Assembly (NCBI GenBank): GCA_963761335.1
Contig: CAVXGR010000009.1
Span: 58,545-122,544 of the forward strand
Direction: 5' to 3'
Length of the DNA stretch: 64,000 bases
Source of the DNA: an uncultured delta proteobacterium
Lineage (GTDB): Bacteria; Desulfobacterota; Binatia; HRBIN30; BPIQ01
Part shown: positions 47,201-56,200 of the stretch, piece by piece
Position numbering within the stretch: the stretch's first letter is position 1
How the letters are laid out: every line of letters starts with the position of its first letter
Position numbers: made by a program

Positions 47201-50200
47201 GAAGCCGGCAGCGGTGGCCCAGGGCCCCCCGAGCCCCACCTCATTGAGATGGCGAAGTGGAATCCACAGAGTGCCCCAGAAGAACGCCGACACCAGAATC
47301 GCAGCGCTCGGGGCGAACGCCGCCGAGCGCGCGCCCGCAGGCTCCGCGCTTCCATCCATCACCGAGCGGCCGCGCCGCGGCGAGCTACTGGCGCCGCGCG
47401 ATGAAGCGTCCCTGGGCAACCTTGCCGGCGTGCGCCAATTCCCGGATGAAGGCGAACTCGCCGGCCACCGCCTGCAGCGCCTCCATGTTGAAGCCGATGA
47501 TTTTCAGCGCATCGAAGGTGAGCTGCATGTCGACCATGTTGAGATAGAGATCGATGTAGGCCGGAAAGCGCGCCGTGTCTTCTGCCGCCACCACCGTGCA
47601 GCCGTTCTCCTCGAGCAGTTGGCGATAGCCGGAAAGGTCCTGCACGTTGGCAAACTTCATTCCCTTCAGGAAGCGCTCCGCCTCCGCGTCCGAGAGACCC
47701 GACGGGCCCTCGATCCAGTCGGTGAAGGCGATCGTGCCGCCCCGTTTCACCAGACGCGCCGCCGCCGCGATGAGCTTCGGCTTGTCGGTCACGTAGCACC
47801 AGGCATCCTCCCCCCACACGAAGTCTGCGCTGCCGTCCGGCAGACCGCTGTTGCAGACGTCGCCGAGCACGAACTCAATGCGGTCATCGACGCCCTCTTC
47901 CTGACAGCGGGCGCGACCGCGATTCACCACCGTCTCGGTTGCATCCACGCCGGTCATCGCGGCGACGTCGCGGAAATGGACGAGGAAGCGCATGCCGGCG
48001 CCGTTGCAGCAGCAGAGGTCGACGCCGCGCATCCCCGCGCCGACACCCGCCCGCTCGGCCAGATCCATCGACGATTTGAAGCCGCCGATGTGGATCTGCT
48101 GGCCCATCAGAAGCTCCCACAGGTCTCCCTCCTGGCCGTTGTACACTGCGGTGACATCGTTCAGCCCGACGTTGTCAATGGATTTCATGCGCGCTTTTCC
48201 TCCAACGCGCACTCCCTACCGAATGGTTGGAAGGCCGGATATGACCGCGATCACGCGATGCGACGACGAACATCAGCGCGAACACATGATCATTCATCCT
48301 TGGACCGCGGCTCGGTGACCCCAACAGCGGTCACTTCCCGCCCCTCGCCAGAGGCGCCCGTGGGCGAAGACGGCGCTCTCAGCCGCCCAGCTTGCTGAGC
48401 ATGAAAGAAATGAGAAACCCGGCGACGGTGATCAAGCCGGCGAAGTCGTGGGCGATGGAGAATGCCTCGGGGATCATGGTGTCGACGAGCATCGCCAGGA
48501 TCGCGCCTGCGGCCGTGGCGATGGTCGCCGCGATGAGGCCCGGGGAGGAGCCGTCGAAGGCCCAGTAGCCAAAGAGCGACGCGACCCCGGAGAGAGCCGT
48601 GATACCGCCCCAGACGCCGAAGATGTACGCCGCGGGGCGGCCCGCCTTCTTCATGCCGGCGACGCTCGAGAGTCCTTCGGGAACGTTCGAGAGGAAAATT
48701 GCCGCCACGGCCACCAGGCTCACGGAGCCGCCCTCGAGCAGGCCGAGGCCGATGACCATGGACTCGGGAACCCCGTCGAGCAGGGCACCGACGGCGATCG
48801 CCAGGCCGCTGCCATTCTCCTCCTCCTCGGACGGCTGCTGATCCCCGGAGCGTTTTCGGTGGCGCGCACCGCATCGCGCCAGCAACCAGTTCGCGGCGGT
48901 GTACACCACCGCTCCCCCGAGGAAGCCCGCCGCAGTGCCCGCGAAGCCGCCGCGGCGATAGGCATCGTCCATGAGCTCGAAGGCCAGTGCCGATATGAGG
49001 ACCCCGCTCCCGAAGGCCATGATCGCCGCAATCAGACGCTGCGGCACCTCCATCAGGTAGGCCACCGCCGCGCCGATCAGCAGCGCGCAGCCGGCCAGCA
49101 GCCCCCAAAGTCCCGCTTCGACCCAAACTGGCATCGGGCAACTTTCTACATCGTCCAGGACTGCCGCGTCGAGACACACAGCGTGCCCATCGATCCTGGA
49201 AGCGCTCGCGTTCGCCGATGCCACATGTTCGCCTGTGCCACATTGACTGCCCCTGCCCGTTTACCTAGAGTCCGCCCCGTCATGCCGAAAGCAGGCGACG
49301 GTACCGAATCGCGCTTCGTCTGGCGGCTGGTCGACGACGAAGCGTTGATCTTCGACCTCCGGTCGGGCGGCTTCTTCTCCCTCGATCGCGTCGGGGCCGA
49401 GGTTTGGACGGGGCTCCAGGGCGGATTGGAGCTGGCGCAGATCGTGCGCGAGATCGCGGGGAAATACGGCGTCGACGAGCAAACGGTGCAGCAAGACGTA
49501 TCCGAGCTGCTCGACGAGCTGAGCCGGGAAGGATTGATGGAGTGAGCAATGGCCAAGGCAGACCGCACCTCGACCGAGAAACGCGGAGACAAAGCGGAAA
49601 AGACTCCTCCTGAACCCCGTCACCCTGCGGCGACCCCGGTGTACGAGAAGCCGCGTCTCCGGCGCTACGATCAGATCGACCAGGTCAAACCCTACGGCCC
49701 GACCGAGATCTGAGAACCGGCTCGCCCCAGTTCTGGCTAGAGAAGCTTCTGGATCTCGACGGCGCCGCGCGCGATGAGCTCGCGGAGCTCTTCGAGATGG
49801 CGCGCCTCGAGATCGGGATAGGGCCGCACGTCCGTGTCCGAGATGATCTCGATGTCGCGCAAGGAGAAACGAGCCAGTAGATCGCCGGCCGCCGCTTCGA
49901 TCTCCCGCGCCAGCGCCGCCGCCCGGCCGCCGCGCTCCGCCGCTCGGCGCCGAAGCTCTGTCAGCGTCTCCAGGTACCTCAGGTCGTAGAGTCCCGCGCT
50001 GAGGCCCTTCCACTGCAGCGTCGGAACACTGCCGCGCCGGGCCGGATAGGTCGCCAGGTGATCCTTGAGGGGGTGCCCTCCCGAGACAGCCCGCTCGTGA
50101 CTGTCCCATTCGTCGAAGTCGTCGTACGGCGAGTACGGGTGCTCCGGCAGATGCTGGTAGCAATACGGCGCGATCCCGTCGGCGCCGCTCTTCCAGAAAT

Positions 50201-53200: not shown

Positions 53201-56200
53201 GTAGAAGGGCATCAGGAAGCCTTTGAGAATCGGCCGGACGACGTAGGCGAGCACCCATTGGGGGCTCTCCGTGTATCGTCCGGCGAGATTCGCTCGCACG
53301 ACGTCGTCGTCGAGACCGTACTCCATCTCGTGCCAGAGGTGCGCATGGTTCTCCGAATAGAACCGCCCGGCCTCGTAGTAGCAGGGGCCGAGCCCCAGAT
53401 GCGTCTCCGCGAAGGCGCCGCGCTCCATCGCCGCGATCGGCAGGGCGTGCTCGGAATCCTTGCGCTCGAGGAGGATCCGCAGCCGTCGCACGTGCGCGGG
53501 GAAACGGCTGGTCAGATCGTTCGACACGTACAACCGCTCCACCCACGGAGCGAGGTCGAGGCTACGACTCTCGATATCGAGTCTCAGAAAATGAAGGACG
53601 AGCTCGGTCTTCACGGATGTCTTCCGGATGGAGCAGGCGGTCGATGGTGACAGCGAGCTGGTCGCTCCCCGCCAGCGCCAGGGTCAATCTGCAGAGATCG
53701 TACTTCGCTCTGAAGGCGTCGTAGTACTGGGTGTGAGGACACTCCGCTCGGGCCCCGAAGGCGTCGCGCAGCGCACGGAGCCGCTCGAACGAGTCGTCCG
53801 ACAGCCGCTCCTCCGCGACGACCGTCCGCAGCACGGCGTCGAGCTCTGCCGCGAGTGCCTGGAACTCCTTGAAGACGGTTATCGGCGTGAGGCTTCCCTG
53901 ATCCTCCAGATCGCTCAGCAGCCGGCGCATGGCCGCGGGATCGACGGGGCCGGCACTGCGGTACGAGCGGTCGATCTCGGCGATTGCGGCGCGAAAGCGC
54001 CGCAGCGATTCGTCCCAGTCATAGGCGGATCGTATGGTGTCGAATCCTCCCCGCCGCACACGCTCCTTCAGCGAATCGTCGCGCAGCAGCGACGCGAGCC
54101 TGGCGTGGAGATCCTGCGGATCGTTCGGACGGGCGAGCACGAGGTTGACGCCGTCGATCCCGTAATCGGACACGCCGTAGGTGCGGGTCGAGACCACCGG
54201 CACGCCGCAGGCAAATGCCTCGAGGGCGGGGAGCCCCAACCCCTCATACCAGGAGGTGCAGCAGTAGACGTCGCAGGTGCGCAGAATGCCCGGCATCTCC
54301 TCCTCGGTTGGGCAGTGGTGGATCTCGACCGGAAACGGCAGCCCGTCGAAGAGCCGCCGCCCGCGCTTTTCCTGCGTGACCAGCACGAGCTCCACCGGCC
54401 TCTCGACCGAGAGGCGCCGGAGCGCCTCGATGCCGTCCTTCATTCCCTTGTAGGGCATCAGGTAGTTGCCGACCATCAGCACGCGCGCCCGCGCCGCGAG
54501 CCTGGCTGGGCGCGGAGACACCGAGAAAATCGTCTTGTCGATGCCGACCGGCACATGGATCGATTCCTTGCCCAGTCGCTCTTTGATGAGGCGCTGCACC
54601 GCTCGCGAGCTGGCGATGATCGGCACCGGCAGGCGGTAGAGGTTGGCGAACGCCGGGGATTCCGCCATGAAGTCCGCGAATGTCGGGCCAGCGGCGTGGT
54701 GGAACGCCTCGTAGTCCTGGCAGAAGAAGATCGCCCGCGCCCTGCCCAGCAGCGGCAGGACCATCGGCAGGAGAAAGGCGTTCGCGACCAGCACGAAGTC
54801 GTAGCTGGGCAGGTCGGCTTGTTCGAGATCGCGCATCGGCAGGAGCGGTGCGCGAAGCCTGCACCAGCGCGGCGGACCGGCGAAGGAGAACAGATGGACC
54901 GACTCGTCGACGTCTGCCAGGCGATTGGCGATCTCGAATACGACCTTCACCCCGCCGCTGAGCGCAGTCGTCGGTAGACAGAAGAGGAGCCGCTTACGAG
55001 CACCGTCCATCGCTGGCGATACTAGCGGCAACCGCCGACGTCCGGAAGTAGACGACTTCTGATGGCACTGCCCTAACTTGGGCTGGGGGATCGCGCCGCG
55101 AAGCGGCGCAGGCATGTAGCCCCGGGTCGGAGACCCGGGGATCCCGGGTCCGCCTTCCCCGATGCGCCCCGCCAGGGGCGCAGGCGTGCAAGCCCGGGGG
55201 CAGAGGCCTGTGTCAAAACCGCGCCCGCGCCCCTGGCGGGGCGCCAACGGACGTCGCCTTCGGGATCCCCGGGTCTCGACCCGGGGCTACACGCCTGCGC
55301 CCCTCCGGGGCAAATGATCTCCGAGCTCAAGGCCACAGATGCAATAGGACAGTACTCTTTTGATTCCTACATTCGAGTTCAATACAGTCGCGCGCGCCGA
55401 TGTCCGATTCCGACGCAAGACCGATCGTGAGTCTCTGCCTGGGGGCGTACGCCGGCGCCGATCGGGCGGCAGCAAATCTGTCCCTCACCACCGGGCTCTC
55501 CCGCCACGTCACGCTCTCGAGCTCGGATCCGCGCAGCCCCGAGGTCGCTTTCATGGTCGCCCACCTGCGCGAGCGGCGTCCGGCGCTGGTGATCTTCAAT
55601 GGCTGGAGCGCCGTCTACGCGAGCATCCTCACCGCCTTGCGCCGCCAACCGATCCGGTTCGCCGTCCTCTGGCACAGCAGTCCGGGCCAGACTGATCTGT
55701 CGGACGAGTGGCCGGCGCTGTCGGAGATCATCGGCAACCGCCGCATCGCGCACCTGCTGTTCGCCAACGAGTCGCTGCGCGAGACACTTGCCCCGCGACT
55801 GCGGAACACCCACCATCTTCCCGACACGCTCGCGGAAGCCGAGTGGGAGGGCCAGCGTGAGGATCATCCCCCTTCCCGCACCGGTCGCGCGCGGCGCGCG
55901 CAGATCACGCTCTTCGCCCAGCCGGCCGAGGCGGCGCGCAAGAACATCACCGGCTGCTTGCTGGCGCTCTCCAGCCTGCGAAGCCGAATCGTCCTCCATC
56001 TCAATGGGCTGTCGCACCAGCCGCGCTACCGCATGCTGCTCGACCTGCTCGGCATCCGCTACCGGGACTGGGGCTGGATGGAGCCGCAGCGGTACGCGGC
56101 GGTCGTGGGCGCGGCCTCCGTCGGCCTGCAGGTGTCGTTCGCCGAGACGTACGGGTACGTCGTCGCCGAACATCTCGCACGCGGCGTCCCGACCGTCGGG

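What a model noticed while it worked through the whole genome (the two positions that open the first line are those of the whole stretch)
49282..55010. Conserved cross-phylum cassette for an undescribed peptide-derived product: invariant YEKPxIRxYDQIDQVKPYGPSEL peptide wi [...]
C9:107826-113554 (near-identical copy on C28:3481-6775) encodes a 54-aa peptide (g00991) next to a PqqD-type peptide chaperone (g00990), a family-2 glycosyltransferase with a C-terminal PqqD/RRE domain (g00993), a P-loop HprK-related kinase (g00994), a family-4 glycosyltransferase (g00995) and a 546-aa protein (g00992) predicted to have the GH123 beta-N-acetylhexosaminidase fold. The peptide has a freely varying N-terminal half and 22 C-terminal residues that are almost invariant from Binatia to Abditibacteriota, Armatimonadota, Acidobacteriota and Actinomycetota; the conserved part starts with the YxxPxL motif by which lasso-peptide RREs grip their leaders. 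This is the signature of a riboso [...]
Evidence so far: Peptide: 40 relatives of 49-64 aa in 5.8e9 proteins, none named; alignment of 17: invariant Y32 E33 K34 P35 R38 Y40 D41 Q42 I43 D44 Q45 V46 K47 P48 Y49 G50 P51 E53, no conserved column before residue 30. Genome scan: 8 loci in 5 phyla; tblastn of this genome's proteins on them: PqqD directly upstream of the peptide in 8 of 8; GT2-RRE, kinase and GT4 in 7 of 8 (L083 has only the GT4 at its edge); g00992-like in 7 of 8; identities 40-57%. NCBIfam, all below cut-offs: g00993 best = mycofactocin glycosyltransferase MftF (134 bits, cut 280) plus lasso PqqD at res 331-384; g00990 = lasso PqqD chaperones (47 bits) and HPr-rel-A PqqD (31, cut 35); g00994 = HprK-related kinase A (44, cut 200); g00992 [...]
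(Added by a program. Inside this text positions count along the whole contig: contig position 58,545 is position 1 of the stretch shown here. "Call 12" and the like, gene names such as g00115 and contig names such as C1 are that model's own, and its searches are not shown. The text may have been shortened before it was handed on; [...] marks where a part breaks off. The agent that wrote the report below was given it as the finding of a first reader that could run no searches.)

Follow-up and report, generated by a model that had tools for sequence, protein, structure and literature searches.

The report
Peptide glycosylation-phosphorylation cassette, product unknown
A small gene cluster found in several unrelated bacterial phyla encodes a short peptide with an almost unchangeable tail, plus chaperone, sugar-adding and kinase enzymes that probably decorate that tail, making a peptide natural product nobody has yet isolated.

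Summary
Window 49282-55010 encodes a PqqD-type RRE, a 54-aa peptide, a GH123-fold protein, a GT2 glycosyltransferase fused to a second RRE, an HprK/PEPCK-fold P-loop kinase and a GT4. The peptide has a disordered, freely varying N-terminal half. Its 23-residue tail, Y-[EQ]-K-P-x-[LI]-R-x-YDQIxQVxPYGPxE, is nearly invariant in 55 unique sequences.

The core (RRE, peptide, GT2-RRE, kinase, GT4) recurs in 23 further loci, including Abditibacteriota, Acidobacteriota and Actinomycetota. It was found in only 1 of 401 sampled genomes of each of two phyla.

- GH123 is accessory (4 of 8 well-flanked loci), and a PsmN/LppN-type nucleotidyltransferase is a frequent partner (5 of 8).
- The closest described system is the 2026 "linear polyphosphorylated peptide" (LPP) family. 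This genome also carries a bridging paralogue on C12 with an SpI-like peptidase.
- Position 52 (S/T, but R in 4 sequences) is a poor universal acceptor. Y49 and Y40 are conserved even in distant relatives, and the GT2's nearest named relative, MftF, glycosylates a tyrosine hydroxyl.

The product, acceptor and function remain unknown. Verdict: a real, undescribed protease-less variant of RRE/HprK-kinase RiPP pathways.

The parts
49243..49271 (+). Sigma-70-like promoter match (TTGACT-17-TAGAGT). It ends 10 nt before the PqqD start codon.
   Evidence: 1 site found against 0.4 expected from shuffles. A consensus match only, so weak.
49282..49545 (+). Stand-alone PqqD-family RiPP recognition element (RRE), 87 aa, of the lasso-B1 type.
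   Evidence: PF05402, 63 bits; lasso PqqD models at 45-47 bits (below cut-offs) and TIGR04353 at 31.2 bits (cut-off 35). TbiB1 (5v1u), E 2.9e-11. It lies directly upstream of the peptide in 22 of 23 other loci.
49549..49713 (+). 54-aa precursor or substrate peptide. Residues 1-30 are variable and disordered.
   Evidence: N-terminal halves are rich in A, P, R, E, S and T with almost no aromatic residues. A GGAG Shine-Dalgarno sequence lies 6 nt upstream of the ATG.
49642..49710 (+). Invariant tail, residues 32-54. It contains the YEKPxL RRE-binding-type motif, then RRYDQIDQVK, then the PYGP(S/T/R)E(L/I) end.
   Evidence: 16 motif variants among 54 unique sequences. In distant relatives only Y32 K34 P35 Y40 Q42 I43 Y49 stay at 90% or more.
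49737..51377 (-). GH123-fold protein, 546 aa, with no signal peptide evident. An accessory member of the cassette.
   Evidence: model pLDDT 94.5; the top 18 listed Foldseek hits are all GH123 hexosaminidases (E 1e-25 to 4e-20, TM 0.56-0.64, 11-16% identity). D294 in 50 of 50, E295 in 44 of 50, D297 in 50 of 50; present in 4 of 8 well-flanked loci.
51374..52585 (-). Family-2 glycosyltransferase fused to a C-terminal RRE (PqqD domain, residues ~325-388).
   Evidence: D45, D91 and the E185-D186 / W191-R192 motifs are conserved in 13 sequences. It overlaps the GH123 gene start by 4 nt. Found in every related locus long enough to hold it.
52592..53614 (-). P-loop kinase of the HprK/PEPCK fold, 340 aa.
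   Evidence: TIGR04352 at 44.5 bits and TIGR04355 at 33 bits, matching only residues 142-193. G159 G162 G164 K165 T167 and D183 invariant in 12 sequences; model pLDDT 89.5; Foldseek best hits are PEPCK (E 2e-7) and then HprK/P (E about 5e-5).
53562..55010 (-). Family-4 glycosyltransferase, 482 aa, with a ~140-aa helical C-terminal extension.
   Evidence: PF00534 at 81 bits. It is 49-57% identical in related loci. It overlaps the kinase ORF by 53 nt as that ORF is called.
55400..58946 (+). Divergently transcribed neighbouring operon, possibly an extension specific to this lineage. It holds a GT4-like gene (55400-56446), a third PqqD (56443-56724), a 400-aa protein with a DxD-like motif and no Pfam hit (56721-57923), and a Glyco_trans_1_2 gene (57933-58946).
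   Evidence: The GT4-like gene, the only one of these four used as a query, was not found in the other loci, so membership is unproven.

Best explanation
This is an RRE-guided tailoring cassette that decorates the invariant C-terminal tail of a ribosomally made, otherwise disordered peptide of 42-65 aa with sugar and phosphate. It belongs to the same broad lineage as the kinase and nucleotidyltransferase tailoring of paeninodin-type lasso peptides and the linear polyphosphorylated peptides (LPP). It differs from them in having no cyclase, no leader peptidase and no exporter, and in using glycosyltransferases as the main enzymes.

Proposed course:
1. pqqD and the peptide gene are co-transcribed. 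This is inferred from the 3-nt gap, the Shine-Dalgarno sequence and a promoter-like site.
2. The stand-alone RRE, and the RRE fused to the GT2, grip the Y-x-K-P-x-[LI] stretch, as lasso and LPP RREs grip YxxPx[LVI]. This is inferred from homology; the co-fold gives weak support.
3. The GT2 domain glycosylates a residue of the short 'core' after the recognition stretch. My preferred acceptor is Tyr49 in the P-Y-G-P turn (about 35%), then Tyr40, then S/T52.
4. The HprK/PEPCK-fold kinase adds phosphate to the peptide or to the first sugar.
5. The GT4 extends the glycan. So do, in other genomes, a second GT4, a further GT2 and a PsmN-type nucleotidyltransferase. In this genome the neighbouring PqqD-plus-GT operon may do the same.
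6. Where present, the GH123-fold enzyme trims or edits a beta-HexNAc residue.

What is shown: gene content, folds, conservation and co-occurrence. What is inferred: every chemical step, the acceptor and the fate of the product.
For: - Core co-occurrence. PqqD lies directly upstream of the peptide in 22 of 23 other loci. GT2-RRE and kinase are present in 9 of 9 loci with at least 4.2 kb downstream (the five short window-like contigs L013-L017, which have under 1 kb downstream, fall below that cut). The 482-aa GT4 is present in 8 of those 9. Protein identities are only 38-57% and the GH123 gene changes place and strand, so the set is kept by selection, not by recent common descent.
- Patchy spread. 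The peptide was found in 1 of 401 sampled genomes of the window's own phylum and 1 of 401 of the phylum of G403.
- RRE type. TbiB1 at E 2.9e-11, and a 'lasso peptide biosynthesis PqqD family chaperone' (9x90) at E 2e-4.
- Co-fold of RRE and peptide. Weak support: ipSAE 0.50 against a best control of 0.03. The mark was reached by 116 of 157 solved complexes and 2 of 215 mismatches. At 0.60 or under it was reached by only 18 of those 157 and by both mismatches. Runs agree in at least 96% of contacts and the partner pLDDT is at least 51. Like complexes are solved, so the pass may reflect likeness.
- Link to LPP and paeninodin. A PF14907 nucleotidyltransferase is present in 5 of 8 well-flanked loci. 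PsmK phosphorylates, and PsmN is needed for hexose on the phosphate, in pseudomycoidin. The LPP core set is RRE, HprK kinase, NTP transferase, SpI peptidase and exporter, with a leader motif YxxPxVLxHQxIxFETxxS.
- Bridge in the same genome. C12:496378-500814 encodes PqqD, a 51-aa peptide ending ...YQKPVLSKHEQLHGIGLGSP, a GT2-RRE, an S24/SpI-like peptidase, an HprK-like kinase and a GT4.
- Enzymes look active. The GT2 motifs are conserved and so are the kinase Walker A and SDD motifs.
- Tyrosine as acceptor. Position 52 is S in 44, T in 6 and R in 4 of 54 unique tails. Distant relatives end ...YGVD or ...YGVE with no Ser or Thr, while Y40 and Y49 stay at 90% or more in 33 sequences. MftF, the best-scoring named relative of the GT2 (135 bits), attaches glucose to the tyrosine-derived hydroxyl of mycofactocin. 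LppK did not accept Thr or Tyr in place of Ser.
Against: - No product, transcript or modified peptide has been observed.
- All family scores for the kinase, RRE and GT2 lie below curated cut-offs.
- The kinase matches HprK models only over about 50 residues, and its best fold hits are PEPCK, so its substrate class is open.
- Characterised HprK-like RiPP kinases act on Ser. That fits S52 better than Tyr, and S or T is present in 50 of 54 tails.
- The MftF likeness is 135 bits against a cut-off of 280 and covers the generic GT-A domain, so acceptor specificity cannot be read from it.
- I could not fetch genomic context for the distant ...YGVD peptides. They may sit in different clusters.
- No protease or exporter is conserved. 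That is unusual for a secreted RiPP.
- An invariant 23-residue stretch is more than an RRE needs.
- The co-fold support is weak.
Confidence: 0.6

Rival explanations
1. The peptide is a scaffold for a small released product, as in the mycofactocin, PQQ or pearlin logic. The enzymes build a phospho-glycosylated moiety on the last few residues. An unlinked protease then frees a tiny glycosylated (phospho)peptide or amino-acid derivative that acts as a cofactor or signal. The variable N-terminal half is only a handle.
For: - Cross-phylum invariance of the tail resembles cofactor precursors rather than antibiotics.
- The best GT2 relative is the mycofactocin enzyme MftF.
- No exporter is conserved, which suggests an intracellular role.
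- In the C12 paralogue, an SpI-like peptidase sits in the cluster. Aligned to the LPP cleavage site, it would leave only about 4 residues (my alignment of the peptide to the motif).
- One relative (P0187) carries the recognition stretch followed by a 38-aa extension. This shows the first half of the motif can act as a leader.
Against: - No peptidase is found in the window cassette or in any of 23 related loci (tblastn with the C12 peptidase, E <= 1e-3).
- No radical-SAM or oxidative enzyme was seen among the ORFs scanned.
- Release is pure conjecture.
Confidence: 0.17
2. The peptide is not a substrate but a small adaptor or regulator. Its invariant tail docks onto the two or three RRE domains and so assembles or switches a cytoplasmic glycan-building complex (GT2, GT4, kinase) whose real acceptor is a lipid, polysaccharide or protein.
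For: - The invariant stretch is longer than an RRE site and has to satisfy several partners.
- The glycosyltransferase complement differs between genomes, as in polysaccharide loci.
- LPP and paeninodin clusters sit in capsule loci.
- There is no protease or exporter.
Against: - Every characterised PqqD-type RRE presents a peptide to an enzyme that modifies that peptide.
- No membrane GT, flippase or polymerase is conserved with the cassette.
- All cassette proteins look soluble.
- The disordered, freely varying N-terminal half has no obvious role in this reading.
Confidence: 0.12
3. It is a classical LPP or lasso-type pathway whose missing parts (cyclase, leader peptidase, exporter) are encoded elsewhere. 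The product would be a phosphoserine peptide, with S/T52 as acceptor and sugars added on the phosphate.
For: - S or T at position 52 in 50 of 54 unique tails.
- The spacing from the motif Tyr to that residue (20) is close to the LPP spacing (18). In the C12 paralogue a Ser sits exactly at the LPP spacing.
- The genome holds Asn-synthase-like genes and many other HprK/PqqD loci elsewhere.
Against: - R at position 52 in 4 unique sequences. One of them was seen on 11 contigs, up to 264 kb long.
- Distant relatives lack Ser and Thr in the tail.
- No Asn_synthase or Transglut_core3 hit lies on the cassette contig near the cassette in 5 of 5 genomes searched. The nearest is 280 kb away, in G401.
- The tail after the motif is too short and lacks the features of a lasso core.
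- No SpI-like peptidase in any cassette locus.
Confidence: 0.1

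Closest known systems
Linear polyphosphorylated peptides (LPP), Popov et al. 2026, PMC13381572. 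Read: abstract, sections 6, 7 and 12, and passages; supplements not seen.
   Same: - A discrete lasso-type RRE, an HprK-like kinase and (in related loci) a PF14907 nucleotidyltransferase.
- A linear peptide with a Y-x-x-P-x-[VLI]...[HY]-[QDE]-x-[IL] recognition stretch, and no cyclase.
- Patchy, transfer-like distribution.
- The final product is unknown there too.
   Different: - LPP is defined by an SpI-like leader peptidase and an MsbA-like exporter. Both are absent here.
- In LPP the motif is N-terminal and the core is long and variable. Here the variable part is N-terminal and the motif sits at the very C-terminus.
- The GT2-RRE fusion, the GT4 and the GH123 are not part of the LPP core.
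- LPP is said to be restricted to Bacillota. Among the 5 named genome loci, this cassette is in Abditibacteriota, Acidobacteriota and Actinomycetota.
Paeninodin/pseudomycoidin-type lasso peptides with C-terminal Ser phosphorylation and hexosylation (PMC6993621, passages read).
   Same: - B1-type RRE, an HprK-family kinase and a PsmN-type nucleotidyltransferase.
- Modification close to the peptide's C-terminus.
- Sugar and phosphate combined.
   Different: - No lasso cyclase or B2 peptidase near the cassette.
- The tail cannot form a lasso core.
- Classical GT2 and GT4 enzymes take the place of, or add to, the nucleotidyltransferase.
Mycofactocin pathway, MftA/MftB/MftF (PMC7491314, passages read).
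   Same: - A short peptide with an invariant C-terminal end containing Tyr.
- A PqqD-type RRE.
- A GT2 that is the best-scoring named relative of the cassette GT2 and that glycosylates a tyrosine-derived hydroxyl.
   Different: - No radical-SAM MftC, peptidase MftE or MftD.
- The MftF model scores 135 bits against a cut-off of 280.
- MftF has no RRE and acts after cleavage.
- The tail does not end in Val-Tyr.
RRE-glycosyltransferase (PF00535) fusions flagged by RRE-Finder surveys (PMC7470986, PMC12710340; passages read).
   Same: The same domain fusion, noted as a candidate for new RiPP classes.
   Different: Those surveys list the fusion without a peptide, product or pathway in the passages I saw. 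Whether their examples include this family is unknown, because the figures and supplements were not seen.
GH123 beta-N-acetylgalactosaminidases and hexosaminidases (PDB 8k2g, 5l7r, 5fqe).
   Same: The overall fold: an N-terminal beta-sandwich plus a barrel. An adjacent Asp-Glu pair lies at the end of a barrel strand (D294-E295).
   Different: - 11-16% identity.
- The profile matches GH123 sequences only outside the catalytic barrel.
- It is cytoplasmic and sits in a peptide-modification cluster.
- E295 is Lys in 6 of 50 relatives.
Davasins: iterative Ser glycosylation of a lasso peptide by IgtG (PMC11912497, abstract only).
   Same: A glycosyltransferase builds an oligosaccharide on one residue of a RiPP.
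   Different: It acts on a mature lasso peptide. I did not compare the enzyme families.

Membership tests
LPP (linear polyphosphorylated peptide) BGC | Discrete RRE encoded beside the precursor | tested here: met
   (22 of 23 other loci).
LPP (linear polyphosphorylated peptide) BGC | HprK-like kinase | tested here: inconclusive
   The P-loop region matches TIGR04352 and TIGR04355 at 44.5 and 33 bits, against cut-offs of 200. The fold hits are PEPCK first and HprK/P second. It aligns with this genome's LPP-like C12 kinase only over ~100 residues at 34% identity. No LppK sequence was available to compare.
LPP (linear polyphosphorylated peptide) BGC | SpI-like (S24/S26) leader peptidase | tested here: not met
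   No hit with the C12 peptidase in the window or in 23 loci. None was seen in the Pfam scans of neighbours.
LPP (linear polyphosphorylated peptide) BGC | PF14907 NTP transferase in the cluster | tested here: not met
   The window's genome has 5 such genes, all on other contigs. The gene is present in 5 of 8 well-flanked related loci.
LPP (linear polyphosphorylated peptide) BGC | MsbA-like exporter | tested here: not met
   No ABC exporter is conserved next to the cassette. One ABC/HlyD pair lies 3-5 kb from the L024 cassette only.
LPP (linear polyphosphorylated peptide) BGC | Precursor with a conserved N-terminal leader motif and a variable C-terminal core carrying the phospho-Ser | tested here: not met
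   The topology is reversed. The motif is similar (YxKPxLxx[YH][DE]Q[IL]) but ends the peptide. The Ser position is R in 4 of 54 unique tails.
Lasso peptide BGC | Asn-synthetase-like cyclase and transglutaminase-like B2 peptidase in the cluster | tested here: not met
   PF00733 and PF13471 searches of 5 cassette-bearing genomes found none on the cassette contig near the cassette. G402 was not searched.
Lasso peptide BGC | B1-type RRE and YxxPx[LVI] leader motif | tested here: met
   Weak co-fold support.
Mycofactocin system | MftF equivalog score; MftA ending in Val-Tyr; radical-SAM MftC | tested here: not met
   135 bits against a cut-off of 280. The tail ends in E-[LIV] or EAG. No rSAM enzyme was seen in the scanned neighbours.
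HPr-rel-A system (NCBIfam TIGR04352 / TIGR04353) | Scores above the curated cut-offs of both models | tested here: not met
   44.5 against 200, and 31.2 against 35.
GH123 glycoside hydrolase | GH123 fold | tested here: met
   Model pLDDT 94.5. The top 18 listed Foldseek PDB hits are all GH123, E down to 1.2e-25.
GH123 glycoside hydrolase | Catalytic Asp-Glu pair in the barrel (the residue roles are recalled, not from a call) | tested here: inconclusive
   D294 is invariant and E295 is present in 44 of 50 at the end of a barrel strand. No residue-level superposition was available, and the profile does not align the barrel to GH123 sequences.

The most novel reading that the evidence does not exclude
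This would be a new RiPP class in which an MftF-like GT2 carrying its own RRE starts an O-tyrosine-linked glycan on the invariant P-Y-G-P turn at the C-terminus of a disordered peptide. A PEPCK/HprK-fold kinase and further transferases elaborate it into a phosphoglycan. The result is a peptide-primed, intracellular glycoconjugate (a cofactor-like or storage or signalling molecule, not an antibiotic). Its exact tail has been kept unchanged while the cassette moved between at least four phyla.
Probability: 0.25. Interest if true: 0.85.

Novelty: new variant of a known kind. Interest (0 to 1): 0.62.

Why it matters
Phosphorylated and glycosylated RiPPs made with HprK-like kinases are known only from Bacillota (paeninodin-type lasso peptides and LPP). 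Even there the final products and their functions are unknown.

This cassette shows the same recognition logic in Acidobacteriota, Abditibacteriota, Actinomycetota and the window's own phylum. It is stripped of cyclase, protease and exporter and rebuilt around glycosyltransferases, one of which carries its own RRE.

The near-absolute conservation of the tail gives a very small, defined target for biochemistry: three or four candidate acceptor residues. The minimal five-gene set is small enough to reconstitute.

If the acceptor is tyrosine, this would be a rare case of ribosomal-peptide O-Tyr glycosylation outside mycofactocin. It would also give a function to the RRE-glycosyltransferase fusions that genome-mining surveys have listed without explanation.

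Tried and rejected
- **Kinase/GT2-RRE gene fusion in L021.** My script suggested a 743-aa ORF, but translation shows a stop between the two genes. Rejected.
- **Lasso reading.** No cyclase or B2 peptidase near the cassette.
- **Expression.** No RNA holder was listed for window 49282-51377. I did not lay reads, so this says nothing about expression.
- **ESM Atlas look-up of the peptide.** Best scores were 0.81-0.83, all unnamed clusters. This is a lead only.
- **Second precursor upstream of the neighbouring operon.** The 51-aa ORF at 55162-55317 is Arg-rich and bears no likeness to the peptide family. Not pursued.
- **The 824-aa ORF on the minus strand (56721-59195).** It has no family hit, and its GC3 pattern is that of the non-coding frame opposite real plus-strand genes. 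Treated as spurious.
- **Wider phyletic search.** The peptide profile found nothing beyond the already known genome in 400 further genomes of each of two phyla.
- **PF27840.** The protein collection's precomputed labels put this Pfam accession on 14 of the 25 listed kinase-family proteins, the window's own among them. The accession is not in the local Pfam library, so I could not read what Pfam calls it.
- **Literature.** Searches found no paper on this peptide family or gene set. The library cannot be searched by motif and lacks most subscription journals. The supplements of PMC13381572 (domain co-occurrence tables) and the RRE-Finder figures were not examined and might list such clusters.
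- **Earlier findings of this scan.** Nothing was returned.

Full report
**What is there**

The DNA is about 68% G+C, so long spurious ORFs abound. I kept ORFs that have both a family hit and the GC3 pattern of coding frames.

On the plus strand lie two genes:
- An 87-aa PqqD-family protein, 49282-49545 (PF05402, 63 bits).
- Three bases later, a 54-aa ORF, 49549-49713, with GGAG 6 nt before its ATG.

A sigma-70-like match, TTGACT-17-TAGAGT, ends 10 nt before the PqqD start. One site was found against 0.4 expected, so this is weak evidence.

Four genes converge on this pair from the minus strand:
- A GT4 glycosyltransferase, 53562-55010.
- A 340-aa P-loop protein, 52592-53614.
- A 403-aa GT2 glycosyltransferase, 51374-52585, whose last ~80 residues are a second PqqD domain.
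- A 546-aa protein, 49737-51377.

The stated observation is therefore correct gene for gene.

**The peptide**

A search of 5.8e9 proteins returned 41 proteins of 49-64 aa, including the window's own, none of them named. In their alignment no column before residue 30 is conserved. Y32 E33 K34 P35 Y40 D41 Q42 I43 Q45 V46 K47 P48 Y49 G50 P51 E53 are invariant.

Adding the peptides read from fetched loci gives 66 sequences, 55 of them unique. Of these, 54 fit Y-[EQ]-K-P-x-[LIV]-R-x-Y-D-Q-I-x-Q-V-x-P-Y-G-P-x-E-x. The 55th has H for R38. About half end there (29) and the rest carry three more residues, EAG (25).

The N-terminal halves are made of A, P, R, E, S, T, K and D with almost no aromatic or large hydrophobic residues. 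They look disordered.

Position 52 is the only soft spot in the tail: S in 44, T in 6 and R in 4 of the 54. One R52 form (P0012) was seen on 11 contigs of up to 264 kb, so it is not a sequencing accident.

**Conservation of the cassette**

The species-representative genome collection gave 5 loci:
- Two Abditibacteriota.
- One Pyrinomonadaceae.
- One Terriglobales.
- One Acidimicrobiia.

The metagenome collection gave 18 more. I ran tblastn with the window's proteins against these loci. The results:
- PqqD lies directly upstream of the peptide in 22 of 23 loci. L023 has none; there the peptide follows an NHL-repeat gene.
- GT2-RRE and kinase are present in 9 of 9 loci that have at least 4.2 kb downstream. 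The five short window-like contigs L013-L017 have under 1 kb downstream and so fall below that cut.
- The 482-aa GT4 is present in 8 of those 9. L019 has only a second, shorter GT4.
- Identities are 38-57%.

Among the 8 loci with at least 6 kb on both sides, the GH123-like gene is present in 4 and changes position and strand between them. It is an accessory gene, not a core gene.

- A PF14907 'uncharacterised nucleotidyltransferase', in 5 of the 8 (L003-L006 and L019).
- A second GT4.
- A GT2 of the Glyco_tranf_2_4 type.

No peptidase, radical-SAM enzyme or exporter recurs.

The peptide profile found nothing in 400 other genomes of the window's own phylum, nor in 400 other genomes of the phylum of G403. 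The cassette is rare and patchy, which is the pattern of horizontal spread.

**The proteins**

- *Stand-alone RRE.* Its closest solved relative is TbiB1, a lasso B1 protein (E 2.9e-11). Next comes an entry titled 'lasso peptide biosynthesis PqqD family chaperone'.
- *Kinase.* The family keeps G159-x-x-G162-x-G164-K165-[ST]-T167 and an S-[DE]-D motif with D183 invariant. Its model (pLDDT 89.5) hits PEP carboxykinases first (E 2e-7, TM about 0.5) and HPr kinase/phosphorylases next (E about 5e-5). From my own knowledge, these two families share one fold. I therefore call it an HprK/PEPCK-fold kinase. Its NCBIfam matches to HprK-related kinase A and B cover only residues 142-193 and lie far below cut-off.
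- *GT2 domain.* It keeps the acidic motifs of active GT-A enzymes in 13 sequences. Its best named relative is the mycofactocin glycosyltransferase MftF, at 135 bits against a cut-off of 280.
- *546-aa protein.* It folds with pLDDT 94.5. The top 18 listed Foldseek PDB hits are all GH123 beta-N-acetylhexosaminidases (E 1e-25 to 4e-20, TM 0.56-0.64). A profile of 50 family members aligns to GH123 sequences only in the N-terminal sandwich and a C-terminal segment. An S-D294-E295-x-D297 motif at the end of a barrel strand is conserved: D294 in 50 of 50, E295 in 44 of 50 with K in the other 6, and D297 in 50 of 50. This fits the adjacent Asp-Glu catalytic pair that I recall for GH123, but I could not superpose residues.

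**What it resembles**

The set 'lasso-type RRE + HprK-like kinase + PF14907 nucleotidyltransferase' is the tailoring module of paeninodin-type lasso peptides.
- In pseudomycoidin, PsmK phosphorylates the C-terminal Ser, and PsmN is needed to put one or two hexoses on the phosphate (PMC6993621).
- In 2026 the same module was found without a cyclase in Bacillota. These 'linear polyphosphorylated peptides' have an SpI-like leader peptidase, an MsbA-like exporter and a leader motif YxxPxVLxHQxIxFETxxS. Ser3 of the core is polyphosphorylated. S3T and S3Y variants are not accepted. The final product is unknown (PMC13381572).

The cassette's tail aligns with that motif over Y-x-K-P-x-L-x-x-[Y/H]-[D/Q]-x-I.

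The window's own genome supplies a bridge. C12:496378-500814 encodes, in one direction:
- a PqqD that is 44% identical to the cassette's;
- a 51-aa peptide ending ...YQKPVLSKHEQLHGIGLGSP;
- a GT2-RRE that is 27% identical over its full length;
- an S24-like peptidase;
- an HprK-like kinase;
- a GT4.

That cluster joins the LPP hallmark (the peptidase) to the cassette hallmark (GT2-RRE plus GT4).

The genome as a whole has 12 HprK-related hits, 13 PqqD hits and 5 PF14907 genes.

The cassette is therefore a member of a wider lineage of RRE/kinase peptide-tailoring systems, but it fails the defining tests of LPP:
- No SpI peptidase in the window or in any of 23 loci.
- No exporter.
- Reversed precursor topology.

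It also fails the tests for lasso peptides: no cyclase or B2 peptidase near the cassette in 5 of 5 genomes searched.

RRE-glycosyltransferase fusions have been listed, without explanation, by the RRE-Finder surveys.

**Where the chemistry may happen**

A profile search of 1.84e9 representative proteins found 28 relatives at E <= 0.001. The more distant ones end ...H-V-A-I-Y-G-V-E...Y-V-T-A-Y-G-V-D or ...R-V-R-I-Y-G-I-D, with no Ser or Thr in the tail.

I aligned 33 sequences:
- 8 of the core set.
- 24 of the new ones. I left out P0187 and P0190, which are longer.
- The C12 peptide.

In this alignment only P35 is invariant, and Y32 K34 Y40 Q42 I43 Y49 are kept at 90% or more.

P0187 has the recognition stretch followed by a 38-residue extension. 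This suggests that Y32 to V46 behaves as a leader and the last 6-10 residues as the core.

Within that core the one conserved modifiable side chain is Tyr49. MftF attaches its beta-1,4-glucan to the hydroxyl of the tyrosine-derived part of mycofactocin (PMC7491314). I therefore favour Tyr49 as acceptor (roughly 35%) over S/T52.

The caveats are plain. I have no genomic context for the distant peptides. The MftF likeness is generic. Known HprK-like RiPP kinases are Ser-specific.

**Binding test**

Co-folding the RRE alignment with the peptide alignment gave weak support:
- ipSAE was 0.50 (runs 0.51, 0.49 and 0.50) against a best control of 0.03.
- The mark was reached by 116 of 157 solved complexes and 2 of 215 mismatches.
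- At 0.60 or under it was reached by only 18 of those 157 solved complexes and by both mismatches.
- The runs agree in at least 96% of their contacts, and the partner pLDDT is at least 51.

RRE-leader complexes are solved, so the pass may reflect likeness.

**Surroundings in the window**

The cassette's left edge is sharp. The C28 copy diverges from C9 at window position 49229, just inside the intergenic region next to a ZIP-family transporter gene.

To the right, transcribed divergently from the GT4, lies a plus-strand operon:
- A GT4-like gene, 55400-56446.
- A third PqqD, 56443-56724.
- A 400-aa protein with a DxD-like motif and no Pfam hit, 56721-57923.
- A Glyco_trans_1_2 gene, 57933-58946.

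Further on there is another GT4 (60715-62301) and a GT2 (62932-63942). Of these, only the GT4-like gene was used as a tblastn query, and it found no counterpart in the other loci. They may be an extension specific to this lineage or a separate system.

**Verdict**

The feature is real and under selection. It is best read as a protease-less, glycosyltransferase-centred variant of RRE/HprK-kinase peptide tailoring. The product, acceptor and biological role are unknown.

I found no paper describing this peptide family or gene set. I did not see the supplements of the LPP and RRE-Finder papers.

Noticed in passing
window 55400-58946 (+), and 60715-63942 (+): A third PqqD gene (56443-56724) is translationally coupled to a GT4-like gene and to a 400-aa protein with a DxD-like motif and no Pfam hit. 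A Glyco_trans_1_2 gene follows, then a further GT4 and a GT2. No second precursor peptide was recognised.
   Followed up: partly
G000:C12:496378-500814 (L031:4379-8814): A paralogous cluster holds PqqD, a 51-aa peptide with YQKPVL..HEQL and a ...GSP end, a GT2-RRE, an S24/SpI-like peptidase, an HprK-like kinase and a GT4. It is an LPP-like cluster in a genome in which the GT2-RRE cassette also occurs. The LPP paper describes LPP as restricted to Bacillota.
   Followed up: partly
G000: C4:8-15 kb, C5:184-220 kb, C12:808-812 kb, C6:41-45 kb, C11:198-199 kb, C16:351-353 kb: The genome holds 12 HprK-related-kinase hits, 13 PqqD hits and 5 PF14907 nucleotidyltransferase genes. Several sit together, so there appear to be many RRE/kinase peptide systems in one genome.
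   Followed up: no
G000:C28 (6776 bp): Bases 3635-6776 are 99.2% identical to the cassette's left part (PqqD has 1 aa difference; the peptide is identical). Bases 1-3634 are unrelated to C9. It could be a strain variant in the assembly or a second insertion site; this is undecided.
   Followed up: partly
L007:10363-13068 and L024:13968-16628: In the two Terriglobales-type loci with enough sequence upstream of the GT4 to tell, a GAF-DUF3417-alpha-glucan-phosphorylase gene lies directly upstream of the cassette's GT4 on the same strand.
   Followed up: no
P0187 (73 aa): A relative in which the recognition stretch (..YSKPRLRRYDQIEQVK) is followed by a 38-residue hydrophobic or Gly-rich extension instead of the PYGPSE end. 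This is an LPP-like leader-core topology.
   Followed up: no
L023:6467-6709: The only locus without a stand-alone PqqD gene upstream of the peptide. The GT2-RRE fusion is still present.
   Followed up: partly
window 43422-46133 (+): A 903-aa SNF2-family helicase. Its NCBIfam hits to several defence-system helicases (DISARM DrmD, DpdE, ZorD) are all far below cut-off.
   Followed up: no
kinase family: The protein collection's precomputed labels give Pfam accession PF27840.1 to 14 of the 25 listed kinase-family proteins, the window's own among them. That accession is absent from the local Pfam copy, so its name is unknown to me.
   Followed up: partly
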